IMG/VR virus record: IMGVR_UViG_2737471844_000006
Direction: 5' to 3' (one strand)
Length of the DNA stretch: 47,932 nucleotides
Origin: a virus
Lineage: Duplodnaviria > Heunggongvirae > Uroviricota > Caudoviricetes
The notes under the pieces were generated by a model that did no database searches, had not been told where the DNA came from, and saw only the letters and a program-made list of their open reading frames with translations. The translations under genes were made by a program, and so were the position numbers. Below, piece by piece: positions 1,553-16,890 of this stretch (the first letter of the stretch is position 1; every line of letters begins with the position of its first letter).

Positions 1553-1741
1553 TCACGAGGACTGAAGTTTCTCGCAATTAAAATTAATCAGTTTTACTTT
1601 CTGCTCTCTGGAAACGCCTGCTTCTTTTTTACCTGAGAGCATTTTTTCGCATTCTGATTTCGTTAGTTTAGATTTTGAATATCTTGTCCAGTTAGTAGGA
1701 GTGCCACCTTCCTTTTCAATAGTGGCGGTAATTTTATACAT
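1553..1741 (-). CDS. ydaC: Rac prophage small protein YdaC-like
   Basis: 62-aa ORF (MYKITATIEKEGG...); its ATG overlaps the end of ralR; position matches Rac gene order. Confidence 0.55.
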   Translation of the reverse strand: MYKITATIEKEGGTPTNWTRYSKSKLTKSECEKMLSGKKEAGVSREQKVKLINFNCEKLQSS

Positions 1742-12600: not shown

Positions 12601-12620
12601 CTACTAGGGGGATAACAATA

Positions 12621-12648
12621 AAATAAAGCCTCCTAGGAGGCTTTGATT
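12621..12648. terminator. Bidirectional rho-independent terminator
   Basis: Perfect palindrome AAAGCCTCCTAGGAGGCTTT between convergent genes, T/A-rich on both sides; overlaps the MTase stop. Confidence 0.6.
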
Positions 12649-13673
12649 ATATTAAGCAAATGTTTTCCAATCGTTTCAGACATCTTCGGAGGGACCGCAT
12701 TTCCTATTTGACGAGCCCGAGATTGCAAAGAACCAATAAATTTATAATCCAAAGGAAATGTTTGTAGACACGCTGCTTCACGAACCGATATTGCTCGATT
12801 TTGTGTTGGATGTCCAAAACGTCCATTTGAATAGCTAATACAACGAGTTGTTAGTCCGCTGGCTGGTTTGTCCCAACTCAAACGTCCATATACGTCTGTA
12901 TGCCCTTTATGGTTACGATGGCATTCTAAAATCAATTCATCTGGCCAAAATTCTCGACTTCCACCTTCAGGAGTGCATTTTATTCTACGCAAATTAAGCT
13001 CTGATAAGCGTGCAGCTTCATGATCAGGAATACTATTATGCTTTTCTCCTGCTTCTATCTTCGGTAAATTAGCGATCCAGTCCTTTACTGTTGAATAGGG
13101 AGTATTTCCAACCCCATGTGTAGGAGAAGGCAATGCGACATAAAAATCCTTGGATGCAATGAGCACTAATCTTTCTCGCGTCTGTGGTACACCGTACCAC
13201 GCAGCTGGCATTACTTTATAATCTACACTATATCCCTTTGATGAAAGCATTTCTAAAAACATCATGAATGTTCCTTCATTTTTGTTAAACTTTTGCATTC
13301 CTGGCACGTTTTCAACAAAAATAAAATCAGGCATATAATGCTCTACAAAACGACTGAATTCCTTTAATAGATCTAATCGTGGATCATCATTTTTTTTATT
13401 TGAGTTTTGCTTAGAGTATGGTTGACAAGGCGCACATCCTGAAAAAAGAATGTAATCATTACGATGTTTTTTTACTAACTTGTTTATGGCATTGTTGTCG
13501 ATTAACCTAATGTCCGAGTTAATAAAAGCAGCCTGCGGGAAATTTGCACGAAATGAACTGGCTGCATCAACGTCGAAATCGAGGCCAAAAACAATATCCA
13601 TTCCAGCTTGATGGAAACCTTGGCTGGTTCCACCACAACCGGAAAAGAAGTCAAACACTTTGATTTTTTTCAT
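12633..13673 (-). CDS. DNA (cytosine-5)-methyltransferase
   Basis: C5-MTase motifs in order: FSGCGG (I), PCQ (IV), ENV (VI), QTRER (VIII), GNAVPP (X); start at ATG 13673 with GAGGG SD; low GC. Confidence 0.9.
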   Translation of the reverse strand: MKKIKVFDFFSGCGGTSQGFHQAGMDIVFGLDFDVDAASSFRANFPQAAFINSDIRLIDNNAINKLVKKHRNDYILFSGCAPCQPYSKQNSNKKNDDPRLDLLKEFSRFVEHYMPDFIFVENVPGMQKFNKNEGTFMMFLEMLSSKGYSVDYKVMPAAWYGVPQTRERLVLIASKDFYVALPSPTHGVGNTPYSTVKDWIANLPKIEAGEKHNSIPDHEAARLSELNLRRIKCTPEGGSREFWPDELILECHRNHKGHTDVYGRLSWDKPASGLTTRCISYSNGRFGHPTQNRAISVREAACLQTFPLDYKFIGSLQSRARQIGNAVPPKMSETIGKHLLNIIKAS

Positions 13674-13696
13674 TTTTCCCTCTGCATCCAGAATCA

Positions 13697-15526
13697 CTAC
13701 CTAATGATACCACGGTCAAGAGCCTGAGTAATTATTTTTCTTATTTTTATAAATTCAGGTAATTCATTTTTAAGTCTTGCGGTCATTATTTTTTGGATGC
13801 AAAAAATCTCCTCTGCATTTACTTCTTCTTTATCATACAGGTGTTGCGCTAATAATCTTATTTGATTCTTATACAGTTCTGGATCATTAGAACTCCAGGT
13901 CTGTGAATCAATTATTTCTTTTTCACTTGGCGTAATTGCCTTTTCAATGAGTAATTGTTCGGGAGTATCAAATGGTAAATACTGCACTTTATTGAATGCA
14001 TACTCAAGCACTTGCCTTTTGAGTCTATTAGATTCTTGTTCATTTTTTTTGCCATTACTACCACTGGCATTGATAATTAACTCGCAACCATAATATTTGC
14101 ACATTGTATTAACTAAATCAGCATCAGCAATTTCACTAATTCTTACTGGTTTTATTTTTTTGTTTTTATCACCATCAAGTAAAAACAAAATATCATTGCG
14201 TTCTACCACAGCGTAACTGGGAAGATGCTTGCTTAAAATGGTCTCCGAACCACCTGGTATATAACTTACACTAAATGATAAGCTTAATCTTTCATCATTT
14301 TTAATCGCTTTATCTATAATTGCTTTAGCTAATTTATCTTCTACAATTATTGTTTTCTTGTTAATATCATGTCCTAGCTCTATAAAAGCTTCATCCGGTG
14401 CTATATTTTGAACTATTTTAGCTGTTTCATTCTCTTCATCAAAAACAAATAATTTAATGGCATCTTTGGGAAGAGTGTTCACAATAACAGGAGAATGGGT
14501 TGATATTACCACTTGATGTTTTTTCTGCTCAACAATAGAGTACAGAACATCCATCATCCTTTTCTGTGCACCAGGGTGAAGTGAAACTTCTGGTTCGTCA
14601 AGAAGAATTAATGAATTAGGTTTGGCCGAATAAATATTGAGTATTAGTGAAACTATTGCAAATTCACCACTTCCAGCAAAAGCTTCTGTATAGTTCAACT
14701 TATCAGTTGAAAGTAAAGCGGTTCCTCCTCTGGTTCCAAATAACCGATGCTCAAGAAATTTAATGACTTTATATTTTTTCCCTAATATAAATGAGACGTG
14801 CTCAACTAGTTCTGGCGCCAAGGTTATATTTTTAACAATGGTTTCCGCCCCCCAAAGTCTTAAATTACTTAGCTTTTCATCAAAAGCTTTCTTTATATAT
14901 TTAGATTTGCTTCTGATATAGTCTTGCTTTGTAATTAATACACCACTCTTCTTCTTTCTTAATTTAAAATCAGAGTGATACATACATCTATCAAATGCAC
15001 TTATTTCCGATCTGAAATCTAGGAAAACCAATCCCTTCTTGATTTTTTTCCATCTGGTTGCATTACTATTAGCACCCAGATCATCCGAAATACTCTCCAT
15101 GTTATCACCAACAGATGGTCGACTTGTTTCCCAATAATCGATTGTTTTCTTGGTAGCATTGATACGCGCTTGGAGTATTTCAACTAAACGGCCATCAGCA
15201 TTTTTATATCCATATATATATCTAGGTTTAAGAGAACTGCCATCAGCAAGTTTTAGGTCAGGAAACTCATCTGTTTCAGTTGTGAACCAATAACGAGTTA
15301 TATTTTTACCATGTGGGCAACCAAATAGCGCTTTGATAACAGAACTTTTATTAGTTCCATTTTTTCCTACTAAAGCCGTTATAGGGAACTGAAAATCGAT
15401 CCTTGCATTCTGCTCTATATTTTTAAAGTATGGAAAACGGATATGTTGTATGAATGGTTCAAATTCACCGTTTTTTAACGCGCACTGGAGTGTTCGAATT
15501 ATGCTCTTGTATGCGGAAGTGCTCAT
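13697..15526 (-). CDS. OLD-family-like ABC ATPase with putative C-terminal TOPRIM nuclease region
   Basis: 609 aa; deviant Walker A LVGKNGTNKSS, Walker B LILLDEPEVSLHP, H-loop ISTHSP, then TIIVEDK and ILFLLDGD resembling TOPRIM Glu and DxD; low GC; MTase ATG follows 24 nt after its stop. Confidence 0.8.
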   Translation of the reverse strand: MSTSAYKSIIRTLQCALKNGEFEPFIQHIRFPYFKNIEQNARIDFQFPITALVGKNGTNKSSVIKALFGCPHGKNITRYWFTTETDEFPDLKLADGSSLKPRYIYGYKNADGRLVEILQARINATKKTIDYWETSRPSVGDNMESISDDLGANSNATRWKKIKKGLVFLDFRSEISAFDRCMYHSDFKLRKKKSGVLITKQDYIRSKSKYIKKAFDEKLSNLRLWGAETIVKNITLAPELVEHVSFILGKKYKVIKFLEHRLFGTRGGTALLSTDKLNYTEAFAGSGEFAIVSLILNIYSAKPNSLILLDEPEVSLHPGAQKRMMDVLYSIVEQKKHQVVISTHSPVIVNTLPKDAIKLFVFDEENETAKIVQNIAPDEAFIELGHDINKKTIIVEDKLAKAIIDKAIKNDERLSLSFSVSYIPGGSETILSKHLPSYAVVERNDILFLLDGDKNKKIKPVRISEIADADLVNTMCKYYGCELIINASGSNGKKNEQESNRLKRQVLEYAFNKVQYLPFDTPEQLLIEKAITPSEKEIIDSQTWSSNDPELYKNQIRLLAQHLYDKEEVNAEEIFCIQKIMTARLKNELPEFIKIRKIITQALDRGIIR

Positions 15527-15539
15527 TGTTTACTAAAGT

Positions 15540-15671
15540 CCATAATAGGCTAACAGGTTGAGGATGACATGATAGCGATTTTTAATGCAGATAAAAGAGG
15601 TTTGTTGGTTACCACACAACAGAAAAAGTGACCTTACCGCTTGAACGAAAGGTAAGGGTAAGTAGGCTGTG
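15540..15671 (+). promoter_or_regulatory. hok leader / presumed sok antisense region
   Basis: Inferred from hok-family architecture; individual elements not resolved; no obvious overlapping mok ORF. Confidence 0.3.
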
Positions 15672-15824
15672 ATGCAGCAAAAGACGATGTTAATCGCCCT
15701 GATTGTCATCTGTATTACCTTCGTTGTGATGGCACTGGTAACAAGGAAAGACTTCTGCGAGGTACAAATCCGAACCGGTCAGACGGAGGTCGCTGTCTTC
15801 ACAGCTTACGAACCTGAGGAGTGA
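15672..15824 (+). CDS. hok: Hok/Gef-family type I toxin
   Basis: 50-aa ORF not in track: MQQKTMLIALIVICITFVVMALVTRKDFCEVQIRTGQTEVAVFTAYEPEE, near-identical in pattern to HokD/RelF as recalled. Confidence 0.85.
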   Translation: MQQKTMLIALIVICITFVVMALVTRKDFCEVQIRTGQTEVAVFTAYEPEE

Positions 15825-15831
15825 GAGACCA

Positions 15832-15853
15832 GGCGAGGGAGAAATCCCTCGCC
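15832..15853 (+). other. Stable stem-loop after hok (GGCGAGGGA-GAAA-TCCCTCGCC)
   Basis: 9-bp perfect stem with GAAA tetraloop directly 3' of hok stop. Confidence 0.5.
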
Positions 15854-16290
15854 ACCTCTGATGAGTCAGGCATCCTCAACGCACCCGCACTTAACCAGCT
15901 TTGGCGGGTATATTTTATCTGTGAATATTTTTATAAAAATAATGCCCACGCACAGCATAAAACAAAAAGTATTACAGATAAAAAAGGAACGTAATGTGCA
16001 GATTTGTTGTTTTCCATATTTACTCACCTTAATATTATTAATCCTGATAGGGTTGTTATTTCAGCGGTTTTCAAATGAGATATTATGGTGATCTGGCAGA
16101 TTTGCATAACATTAAAATTTAATTTGTTTAACCGCTTTTAATAATAAGCGTTGTTTTTATCCCAGCAATCTGTTGTTTGGTTTTTATTCCATCAATGTGG
16201 GGGCTTTACACTGGAATCAGTTTATTTATACTTTATACGTCAGCCTGAACAACTGGCATCTGCTGCACTGCGCCATCGAGAGATTGAGAA

Positions 16291-16890
16291 ATGGCGCATA
16301 TACAACTGGTCAAACAAACCTCTTCTGGTTTACTTCTCCCGGCGACGCCGGAGAGTTGCGATTTTCTGCATCAAATCAAAATAGGTGAGTGGATACACGC
16401 AGACTTTAAGCGTGTGCGTAACTACGCATTCCACAAGCGTTTTTTCAAACTCCTGCAACTGGGATTCGATTACTGGACTCCGGTCGGTGGGGCGATCACG
16501 CCTCGCGAACGAGAACTGCTGTCTGGTTTCGTGGATTACCTGTGCGAATCAGTTGGTCGGGAACACACGCCAGCCCTGATTGATGCCGCGGAACAATATC
16601 TGAATACCGTTGCGACACGCAGAACCCAGGATATGGCATTGCTCAAATCATTTGACGCTTTCCGCGAGTGGGTAACCATTCAGGCCGGATTTTACACCGA
16701 GCATTTTTATCCTGATGGTAGTCGTGGGCGTCGGGCGAAATCCATCGCGTTTGCGAATATGGACGAAACCGAGTTTCAGCAGGTTTATAAATCTGTACTG
16801 AATGTGCTGTGGAACTGGATTCTGTTCCGTAAATTTTCCTCTCCGGAACAAGTCGAAAATGTGGCCGCGCAGCTACTGGAGTTTGCGTAA
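16291..16890 (+). CDS. nin-region phage protein (possibly NinB/Orf-like)
   Basis: 199-aa ORF heading a coupled operon before the Q gene; weak pattern similarity to lambda NinB only. Confidence 0.5.
   Translation: MAHIQLVKQTSSGLLLPATPESCDFLHQIKIGEWIHADFKRVRNYAFHKRFFKLLQLGFDYWTPVGGAITPRERELLSGFVDYLCESVGREHTPALIDAAEQYLNTVATRRTQDMALLKSFDAFREWVTIQAGFYTEHFYPDGSRGRRAKSIAFANMDETEFQQVYKSVLNVLWNWILFRKFSSPEQVENVAAQLLEFA

What the first reader, a model, noticed from the sequence alone, without database searches (positions are those of the whole stretch)
15527..15860. hok/sok-type type I toxin locus divergent from the ATPase-MTase cassette
A 50-aa Hok/Gef-family toxin ORF (15672-15824), too short for the ORF track, lies about 145 nt from the start of the OLD-like gene on the opposite strand, followed by a 9-bp stem / GAAA tetraloop hairpin. 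The shared intergenic region must hold the hok leader, any sok antisense promoter and the cassette promoter. I could not find an obvious overlapping mok frame with a start codon, so translation control may differ from plasmid R1 hok.
Basis: partly seen in the sequence, partly recalled or inferred. Interest (0 to 1): 0.5.

Follow-up and report, generated by a model that had tools for sequence, protein, structure and literature searches.

The report
Hok toxin gene without its antitoxin
This is a real Hok membrane-toxin gene in an E. coli Rac-like prophage, but an inserted ATPase/methylase cassette has replaced the front of its control region, so it has no Sok antitoxin RNA and no mok reading frame; it resembles the known crippled hokD gene of E. 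coli K-12 and is ordinary.

Summary
A 51-codon ORF (GTG 15669, or ATG 15672, to 15824) is a Hok/Gef toxin (Pfam 75.5 bits). It lies 142 nt from the divergent 609-aa ATPase gene and is followed by a 9-bp/GAAA hairpin (15832-15853).

The "hok/sok locus" interpretation is only half right. The gene is a hokD-class copy, about 91% identical to hokD from about 15643 onward. Intact prophage relatives have a 169-nt leader with a promoter -10, tac, a 70-codon in-frame mok and a Sok hairpin, and they score 104-120 bits on Rfam sok. The window and K-12 hokD score nothing. Similarity to that leader starts only about 40 nt before the start codon. The mok frame carries a TAG two codons upstream of the start.

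What remains is the SD hairpin, the ORF, the 3' protective stem-loop, the fbi and a terminator. 15527-15628 is unrelated sequence that travels with the cassette. Diverged cassette homologues lack hok, and unrelated cargo sits beside intact hok elsewhere. Hok therefore marks the right edge of a cargo slot and serves as a recombination anchor.

It is most likely a silent orphan toxin gene. One loose end is a perfect 10-nt complement between the new upstream sequence and the fbi.

The parts
15669..15824 (+). hok toxin ORF, 51 codons from GTG 15669. This GTG aligns with the ATG of hokD; an ATG at 15672 is codon 2.
   Evidence: ORF. Pfam HOK_GEF 75.5 bits. About 91% nt identity to hokD. 15 nt differences from HokD of K-12.
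15527..15628 (.). Cassette-linked spacer that replaces the 5' ~125-130 nt of the hok leader. It shows no similarity to any hok leader.
   Evidence: Found only in 32 of 5426 E. coli genomes, always beside the ATPase gene. No match in phages or plasmids. Identity to intact leaders is at background level. It is constant across haplotypes in which the rest of hok is swapped.
15629..15668 (+). Surviving 3' end of the hok leader. It holds a 7-bp hairpin (CCTTACC 15632-15638 / GGTAAGG 15651-15657) that buries the weakened SD (AAGGG 15654-15658; AAGGAG in intact loci), and a TAG at 15663-15665 in the mok frame.
   Evidence: 60-70% identity to intact leaders. Hairpin seen in the fold. In-frame translation shows the stop.
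15832..15853 (+). 9-bp stem with GAAA loop just after the stop codon. It is the homologue of the terminal stem-loop of the processed (Tr) hok mRNA of R1.
   Evidence: Perfect inverted repeat. Compensatory changes across haplotypes. It aligns with the R1-type hairpin GGCGGGC-GCAG-GCCCGCC, whose disruption destabilises Tr-hok mRNA (PMC9841398).
15874..15886 (+). fbi-equivalent (CCTCAACGCACCC). In intact relatives it pairs with the 5'-terminal tac (GGGUGCUUGAGG), which is absent here.
   Evidence: The MFE fold of the intact L002 mRNA pairs its 5' end with this element. It aligns with the R1-type CUGAAGCGCC.
15895..15918 (+). Terminator remnant. The stem is CCAGC/GCGGG with one mismatch (consensus CCCGC-TTCG-GCGGG), followed by a T-rich tail.
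   Evidence: Alignments. The same degenerate form also occurs with an intact leader in L035.
15557..15566 (+). GTTGAGGATG, a perfect 10-nt complement of 15871-15880, which overlaps the fbi-equivalent. Unexplained.
   Evidence: Reported by the repeat finder. Reached in 15 of 2000 shuffles. It forms the outer helix in the MFE fold of 15556-15927.
15569..15631 (+). 20-codon upstream ORF (MIAIFNADKRGLLVTTQQKK). GAGG lies 5 nt before its ATG, and its stop lies 1 nt before the SD hairpin. Significance unknown.
   Evidence: ORF. It is open in all 9 haplotypes, but every substitution is nonsynonymous.
15542..15570 (-). Best promoter-like site in the spacer (ATGTCA-17-TATTAT). It points toward the ATPase gene.
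   Evidence: Consensus scans. No comparable site on the + strand.
15807..15810 (+). TACG at Tyr47, the Tyr-to-Cys editing position reported for hokC, hokD and hokE.
   Evidence: Read from the sequence. Editing is reported in PMC12214031 and in bioRxiv 10.1101/2025.08.07.668861, which names TadA as the enzyme for hokB.

Best explanation
This is a hokD-class hok toxin gene that has lost the front of its regulatory leader. In intact relatives in other lambdoid prophages, a ~415-nt hok mRNA starts at GGGUGCUUGAGG (tac). It carries a 70-codon in-frame mok. A Sok antisense RNA (long hairpin plus U tail) is encoded opposite the leader. The mRNA ends with a protective stem-loop, an fbi that pairs with tac, and a terminator. 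In the window, everything upstream of about 15629 has been replaced by sequence that travels with an OLD-like ATPase / C5-methyltransferase cargo cassette. The lost parts are the hok promoter -10, tac, ucb, the mok SD and start, the Sok target and the sok gene. The SD-proximal hairpin, ORF, 3' stem-loop, fbi and terminator remain. The surviving initiation region carries four changes that all point toward weaker translation: SD AAGGAG to AAGGGT, start ATG to GTG, a perfect 7-bp hairpin over the SD, and TAG in the mok frame. In R1, hok translation depends on mok translation and on tac-driven refolding, so I infer that this ORF is poorly expressed or silent. That would explain how it is tolerated without an antitoxin. 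Shown: the homology map, the absence of the sok/mok/tac region, linkage of the spacer to the cassette, and recombination inside the ORF. Inferred: translational silence, and a role as no more than a remnant and a homology anchor at the right edge of a cargo slot.
For: Rfam sok scores 104-120 bits in four intact relatives. It scores nothing in K-12 hokD or in the window: gathering threshold over the whole window, and E<=10 over 15300-16300.

Alignments place the start of similarity at about 15629-15643.

Intact relatives have a 70-aa in-frame Mok-Hok ORF. They also have a Sok-like antisense hairpin of -32.8 kcal/mol, z -4.95, and tac-fbi pairing in the MFE fold.

In the window, a TAG lies two codons before the start and no ORF overlaps it.

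The spacer occurs only with the cassette, in 32 of 5426 genomes.

Cassette homologues in Pantoea and in two viral contigs have no hok.

Unrelated cargo (AbiH, an AAA ATPase, relBE, paa, small ORFs) sits beside hok at the same prophage position.

In mosaic haplotypes, 15527-~15690 stays with the cassette while the rest of hok and its downstream flank is exchanged.

In every fold, the start region is paired with 15799-15814 and the SD lies in a hairpin.

A predicted bidirectional terminator at 12624-12645 would block read-through from the early-right genes.

Precedent: K-12 hokD lacks canonical TA components through rearrangement (PMC12214031), and its relE-hokD junction is present in 1166 of 5426 genomes. 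R1 hok without Sok is lethal unless its expression is lost, and mok translation is required for hok translation (PMC9841398).
Against: There is no expression data, so silence is an inference. The ORF is intact in every copy seen, although these copies are nearly clonal. A perfect 10-nt complement to the fbi region lies in the new upstream sequence, reached in 15 of 2000 shuffles. A 20-codon uORF with a GAGG SD ends at the foot of the SD hairpin. Together these could mean the leader was rebuilt rather than simply lost. Promoter scans are too weak to exclude a + strand promoter.
Confidence: 0.75

Rival explanations
1. Rewired hok. The cassette-linked spacer supplies a new 5' end whose GUUGAGGAUG pairs with the fbi region, acting as a neo-tac and holding the mRNA closed. 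After 3' processing, the GAGG SD of a 20-codon uORF is freed. Ribosomes terminating at 15629-15631 would melt the SD hairpin and couple into hok, playing the part of mok. Antisense control, if any, would come from the divergent ATPase transcript.
For: A 10-nt perfect complement lies exactly at the fbi-equivalent, reached in 15 of 2000 shuffles. It forms the outer helix of the MFE fold. The uORF is open in all 9 haplotypes, and its stop abuts the hairpin.
Against: The complement was found post hoc. Four of the ten bases are an SD-like GAGG pairing with CCUC. No sequence variation exists to test covariation. All uORF substitutions are nonsynonymous. No convincing + strand promoter lies upstream of 15557. 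The only promoter-like site on the minus strand would start the ATPase mRNA at about 15535, which does not overlap this leader.
Confidence: 0.12
2. Canonical hok/sok module with a diverged Sok. This is the first reader's view: the spacer holds a hok leader and a sok promoter too diverged to recognise.
For: Hok ORFs usually come with Sok. A remnant of the Sok -35 position (TTACCT, reverse complement of 15650-15655) survives in the homologous stretch, as read.
Against: There is no Rfam sok hit at E<=10, while relatives score above 100 bits. The position matching the Sok -10 reads GTCACT. No antisense hairpin-plus-U-tail is present, and no minus-strand promoter lies over the initiation region. 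142 nt is too short for a promoter plus a 169-nt leader. The spacer has no homologue in any hok locus of E. coli genomes, phages or plasmids.
Confidence: 0.04
3. Hok is a third component, the killing effector, of the ATPase/MTase defence cassette.
For: The exact Hok variant and the spacer are always found beside the cassette. The two are divergently arranged.
Against: ATPase+MTase pairs at 63-72% aa identity in Pantoea, and ATPase homologues at 64-69% in two viral contigs, have no hok nearby. Hok sits at the same prophage position beside unrelated cargo. The hok ORF recombines independently of the cassette.
Confidence: 0.04

Closest known systems
hokD (relF) of E. coli K-12, Qin prophage
   Same: The ORF and 3' UTR belong to the same family, with about 91% nt identity from just upstream of the start to the terminator. 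Both lack the sok/mok/tac region and give no Rfam sok hit. Both sit just upstream of the late-gene antiterminator (Q) module of a lambdoid prophage, with DUF1367/YbcO before it here and DUF968 in K-12.
   Different: The junction is independent. In K-12 the hok homology begins about 10 nt before the start codon, directly after relE, and hokD lies downstream of relBE on the same strand. Here the homology begins about 40 nt before the start codon, the SD hairpin is kept, and the upstream neighbour is a divergent ATPase gene. The K-12 type is in 1166 of 5426 genomes and this type in 32. The protein differs from HokD at 9 of 51 residues, counting the GTG start.
Intact prophage hok/mok/sok loci (annotated hokW/mokW or mok/hok in lambdoid and Stx phages, e.g. 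phage Rac MN652886)
   Same: They hold the same position in the prophage and have the same ORF, 3' stem-loop, fbi and terminator.
   Different: They have the full 169-nt leader, a 70-codon mok, a Sok hairpin and an Rfam sok hit. The window has none of these.
hok/sok (parB) of plasmid R1
   Same: The toxin is of the Hok family. The post-stop stem-loop, CUGAUG motif and fbi align position for position.
   Different: R1 has Sok, mok, tac, ucb and dcb, and it acts in post-segregational killing (PMC9841398). In the window all 5' elements are missing.

Membership tests
Hok/Gef toxin protein family (Pfam PF01848) | Profile match above the curated cut-off | tested here: met
   75.5 bits against a cut-off of 22, E 2.4e-21, covering profile positions 2-42 of 42. 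The NCBIfam Hok subfamily model scores 42.9 bits, below its cut-off of 73.
Hok/Gef toxin protein family (Pfam PF01848) | Peptide of about 50 aa with an N-terminal hydrophobic helix, a conserved Cys and a C-terminal Tyr/Cys position | tested here: met
   The sequence is MMQQKTMLIALIVICITFVVMALVTRKDFCEV...AYEPEE. Cys30 and Tyr47 (codon TAC, followed by G) are present. The editing position is described in PMC12214031.
Hok/Gef toxin protein family (Pfam PF01848) | Kills or depolarises cells when expressed | not testable with these tools
   This needs an induction assay.
Canonical hok/mok/sok type I toxin-antitoxin locus (R1 parB type) | Sok antisense RNA gene opposite the leader | tested here: not met
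   Rfam RF01794 gives no hit at E<=10 over 15300-16300 or at the gathering threshold over the whole window. Positive controls score 104-120 bits. No antisense promoter or terminator was found.
Canonical hok/mok/sok type I toxin-antitoxin locus (R1 parB type) | mok reading frame starting upstream and overlapping hok | tested here: not met
   No ORF of 20 aa or more on the + strand overlaps the hok start. A TAG at 15663-15665 closes the mok frame. Relatives have a 70-aa Mok-Hok frame.
Canonical hok/mok/sok type I toxin-antitoxin locus (R1 parB type) | 5' tac element pairing with the 3' fbi, plus ucb/dcb boxes | tested here: inconclusive
   The homologous tac, ucb and dcb region is absent, while the fbi is present at 15874-15886. 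A non-homologous 10-nt complement to the fbi region exists at 15557-15566, reached in 15 of 2000 shuffles.
Canonical hok/mok/sok type I toxin-antitoxin locus (R1 parB type) | 3' protective stem-loop and terminator downstream of hok | tested here: met
   The hairpin at 15832-15853 shows compensatory changes and aligns with the R1-type terminal stem. A terminator remnant lies at 15895-15918.
Sok-less hokD class (as in K-12 hokD/relF) | hokD-type ORF and 3' UTR without sok, mok or the upstream elements | tested here: met
   About 91% nt identity to hokD. Like K-12 hokD, it gives no Rfam sok hit. The literature describes the K-12 case (PMC12214031).
Sok-less hokD class (as in K-12 hokD/relF) | Same rearrangement as K-12 (relBE immediately upstream) | tested here: not met
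   The upstream neighbour is a divergent ATPase gene, and the breakpoint is about 30 nt further upstream. This is an independent event.
OLD-like ATPase / methyltransferase cassette with hok as a component | hok co-occurs with the cassette wherever the cassette is found | tested here: not met
   There is no hok beside the homologous cassettes in Pantoea (L019) or in the viral contigs L028 and L029.

The most novel reading that the evidence does not exclude
The truncated hok has not been silenced. It has been rewired by the sequence that came with the cargo cassette. A new 5' segment (GUUGAGGAUG, 15557-15566) pairs with the ancestral fbi and masks the SD of a 20-codon uORF. That uORF ends at the foot of the hok SD hairpin. 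This would recreate a fold-back lock and a mok-like translational coupling without Sok, and it might tie toxin release to the state of the divergent defence cassette.
Probability: 0.1. Interest if true: 0.55.

Novelty: new member of a known kind. Interest (0 to 1): 0.2.

Why it matters
It matters little by itself. The gene is already annotated as Hok/Gef, and Sok-less hokD copies are common in E. coli: the K-12 junction alone is in 1166 of 5426 complete genomes.

The useful points are practical:
- A Hok ORF should not be called a hok/sok toxin-antitoxin system unless the leader is checked, and the Rfam sok model separates the two cases cleanly.
- In these lambdoid prophages, hok marks the right edge of a slot that carries varied cargo, some of it defence-related (AbiH, an AAA ATPase, relBE, the paa adhesin, this OLD-like ATPase/methylase pair).
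- Recombination inside the hok ORF moves that cargo between prophages.

Tried and rejected
- I searched for Sok with Rfam at a permissive threshold over 15300-16300. It returned only noise hits, with no sok match.
- I looked for homologues of the spacer in E. coli genomes (distant mode), phages and plasmids. There were none beyond the 32 cassette-bearing genomes.
- I compared the spacer with the region upstream of the Pantoea ATPase homologue. Similarity was not above shuffled controls, so the origin of the spacer remains unknown.
- I first read the excess of nonsynonymous differences from HokD (9 nonsynonymous against 4 synonymous codons) as decay. I rejected this because the same mid-ORF substitutions and the degenerate terminator occur in loci with an intact leader (P0003/L035 and P0004/L036).
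- I first took GTTAAGT upstream of the intact leaders for tac. I rejected this after the Rfam and R1-type alignments placed the mRNA start at GGGUGCUUGAGG, with TAGAAT as the -10.
- Relaxed promoter scans gave only weak sites.
- Pedersen & Gerdes 1999, the primary source on the chromosomal hok loci, is not held in the library.

Full report
**Context.** The window is a Rac-like lambdoid prophage of E. coli. A RalA antitoxin RNA lies at 1557-1735. The region around the finding is 100% identical to E. coli EC11 and about 98% identical to 27 further complete genomes. The EC11 annotation reads recE, kilR, racR, ydaS and ydaT, replication genes, DUF1627 and DUF977. It continues with a cytosine methyltransferase and an 'ATP-dependent nuclease' on the opposite strand, then Hok/Gef, DUF1367, DUF1364 (YbcO), DUF1133 (Q-like), and lysis genes.

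**The observation.** The ORF runs 15669-15824 (GTG start; the ATG at 15672 is codon 2) and encodes MMQQKTMLIALIVICITFVVMALVTRKDFCEVQIRTGQTEVAVFTAYEPEE. It matches Pfam HOK_GEF at 75.5 bits, E 2.4e-21. The divergent 609-aa ORF starts at 15526, which leaves a 142-nt spacer. It is an OLD/Gabija/PtuA-class ABC ATPase: PADLOC gives HEC-04 at 5e-34 and ATPase-Toprim_I-B at 3e-26. The 9-bp/GAAA hairpin is at 15832-15853.

**Which hok it is.** Megablast against 5,426 complete E. coli genomes gives about 91% identity to annotated hokD. The match starts only at window ~15643-15660 and runs to ~15909. Just 32 genomes match the 116 nt upstream of that point, and all of them carry the same ATPase gene. Phage and plasmid records behave the same way.

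**What an intact relative looks like.** I fetched hokD-type loci from other prophages: L002, L003, L004, L006 and L008. They share a conserved block of about 190 nt upstream of hok that the window lacks.
- *Rfam match.* The Rfam family sok (RF01794) matches that block on the hok strand, at 119.9, 112.8, 105.2 and 103.9 bits.
- *mok.* In L002 an ATG at 2467 opens a 70-codon frame continuous with hok. This is mok, laid out as in the 70-aa 'Hok family toxin' proteins.
- *Sok.* The opposite strand of L002 2395-2482 folds into a short 5' region, a long hairpin and a U-rich tail, at -32.8 kcal/mol and z -4.95. This is Sok-like.
- *Promoter and tac-fbi pairing.* By my reading of the sequence, TAGAAT lies 6 nt before GGGUGCUUGAGG. 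That places the mRNA start where the R1-type mRNA starts, GGCGCUUGAGG. The MFE fold of the 419-nt L002 mRNA pairs this 5' end with CCUCAAUGCACCC near the 3' end, which is the tac-fbi fold-back. R1 uses GGCGC/GCGCC where the hokD type uses GGGUGC/GCACCC, so complementarity is kept between families.
- *Published roles.* PMC9841398 summarises the elements. The tac/fbi pairing closes the full-length mRNA, and ucb sequesters the mok SD. 3' processing opens the structure. mok translation is needed for hok translation. Sok binds the processed form.

**What the window has and lacks.**
- *No sok match.* RF01794 gives no hit at the gathering threshold over the whole window, or at E<=10 over 15300-16300. 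K-12 hokD, used as a control, is also negative. The literature describes K-12 hokD as lacking canonical components through rearrangement (PMC12214031).
- *Where similarity begins.* Sliding identity to three intact leaders is at background level up to about 15628. It is 60-70% over 15629-15668 and above 85% in the ORF.
- *mok frame.* Read upstream in the hok frame, the window gives ...TKGKGK*AVMQQK. The TAG at 15663-15665 stands where intact loci have CAG. No ORF overlaps the start.
- *Initiation region.* It differs from the consensus in four ways: SD AAGGAG to AAGGGT, ATG to GTG with AAG to ATG at codon 2, C to T completing a perfect 7-bp hairpin (15632-15638 / 15651-15657) over the SD, and the TAG. 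All four weaken or block translation.
- *Folds.* In every fold of the region, the start codon region pairs with 15799-15814.
- *3' elements.* These are all present. The stem-loop 15832-15853 aligns with the R1-type hairpin GGCGGGC-GCAG-GCCCGCC. Mutations in that R1 stem eliminate the processed hok mRNA (PMC9841398). The window hairpin shows A:T, G:C and G:T exchanges and a G:C to A:T exchange across haplotypes. The fbi-equivalent is at 15874-15886, followed by a terminator remnant at 15895-15918.

**Where the spacer came from, and whether hok belongs to the cassette.**
- The exact Hok protein is found only in this context: 10 of 10 places read.
- Cassette homologues occur without hok. In Pantoea sp., an ATPase at 63% and an MTase at 72% aa identity sit adjacent, with no Hok by tblastn. 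Two viral contigs carry ATPases at 69% and 64% identity and also have no Hok.
- Hok sits at the same prophage position next to unrelated cargo: AbiH (L002), an AAA ATPase plus a hypothetical protein (L003), two hypotheticals (L004), relBE (K-12), the paa adhesin (L006), and small ORFs (L008, L035).
- Among IMG/VR contigs with a 99%-identical ATPase, the spacer and the first ~25-35 nt of hok are constant, while the rest of the ORF, the 3' UTR and the downstream flank switch to other hokD alleles.
- The reverse also occurs. L035 joins an intact leader to the window-type 3' half.

Hok is therefore not part of the cassette. It is a conserved flank within which recombination exchanges cargo. The amino-acid differences in the middle of the protein are alleles from the shared pool and are not decay.

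**Expression.** Consensus scans find no convincing + strand promoter in the spacer. The best site is on the minus strand (ATGTCA-17-TATTAT, 15570 to 15542) and points at the ATPase gene. A predicted bidirectional terminator at 12624-12645 separates the early-right genes from the cassette. R1 hok without Sok is lethal even in single copy, and survivors carry mutations in the promoter, tac, mok, hok or the 3' stem (PMC9841398). A locus that lost Sok together with the promoter, tac and mok is the kind that can persist. I conclude, by inference, that the ORF is silent or nearly so.

**An unexplained detail.** GTTGAGGATG (15557-15566) in the new spacer is a perfect complement of CATCCTCAAC (15871-15880), which overlaps the fbi-equivalent. 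Only 15 of 2000 shuffles of the spacer give a complement that long anywhere in the 3' UTR. It forms the outer helix when 15556-15927 is folded. It contains GAGG 5 nt before the ATG of a 20-codon uORF (15569-15631), whose stop lies 1 nt before the SD hairpin. The uORF is open in all nine haplotypes, but every substitution in it is nonsynonymous, and neither arm of the complement varies informatively. This could be chance built on an SD/anti-SD-like core, or it could be a rebuilt lock. I give the rebuilt-lock reading about 10%.

**Verdict.** The toxin gene and the hairpin are real. The 'hok/sok locus' label is not supported. This is a second, rarer junction type of the Sok-less hokD class: 32 genomes, against 1166 for the K-12 relE-hokD junction. 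It was created by cargo replacement at a prophage slot bounded by hok. It is a new member of a known kind and of low interest.

Noticed in passing
window 12601-15628; loci L002-L006, L008, L035: The stretch between the DUF977 gene and hok is a variable cargo slot in Rac/Qin-like prophages. Depending on the strain it holds the OLD-like ATPase + C5-MTase, AbiH, an AAA ATPase + hypothetical, relBE, the paa adhesin or small ORFs. In intact loci the conserved block starts between the -35 and -10 of the hok promoter.
   Followed up: partly
L023-L027 versus window 15690-15960; L035 4001-4320: Mosaic haplotypes show homologous recombination inside the hok ORF. The cassette plus spacer is joined to different hokD alleles and downstream flanks. 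In L035, an intact leader is joined to the window-type 3' half.
   Followed up: yes
window 12633-15526 (minus strand): The 609-aa ATPase has best PADLOC hits HEC-04 (5e-34) and ATPase-Toprim_I-B (3e-26). It is paired with a type II C5-cytosine methyltransferase (MTase_II 1e-96, DruM-like). The same gene pair is adjacent in Pantoea sp. alder81 at 63% and 72% aa identity. In E. coli EC11 the ATPase is annotated as two overlapping CDS, which suggests a frameshift; the window has one intact ORF.
   Followed up: partly
window 12624-12645: A 9-bp palindromic hairpin (AAAGCCTCC-TAGG-AGGCTTT) has T-rich tails on both strands. It lies between the convergent DUF977 and methyltransferase genes and looks like a bidirectional terminator.
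   Followed up: no
window 1557-1735: A full-length RalA antitoxin RNA of the RalR/RalA type I toxin-antitoxin system (Rfam 223.8 bits). It is a second type I system in the same prophage.
   Followed up: no
window 15807-15810: TACG at Tyr47 of Hok is the Tyr-to-Cys mRNA-editing position reported for hokC, hokD and hokE. In the predicted folds it lies in the segment that pairs with the hok start region (15657-15672 / 15799-15814).
   Followed up: partly
window 15588-15596 and 15913-15921: A second perfect 5'-3' complement (CAGATAAAA / TTTTATCTG, 9 nt) links the spacer and the terminator tail. It cannot nest with the 10-nt complement. It is AT-rich and may be chance.
   Followed up: no
Rfam RF01794 hits, e.g. 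L002 2355-2529 (+): The Rfam family named 'sok antitoxin' matches the hok-sense strand, from the mRNA start to the hok start codon. In practice it detects the hok leader and not the antisense Sok RNA itself.
   Followed up: partly
phage record PP818812.1, 13378-13641 (hit H147): A record named Actinobacillus phage vB_Apl-pPE4 carries a hokD-type gene 90.9% identical to the window's. That host is unexpected for an E. coli prophage sequence.
   Followed up: no
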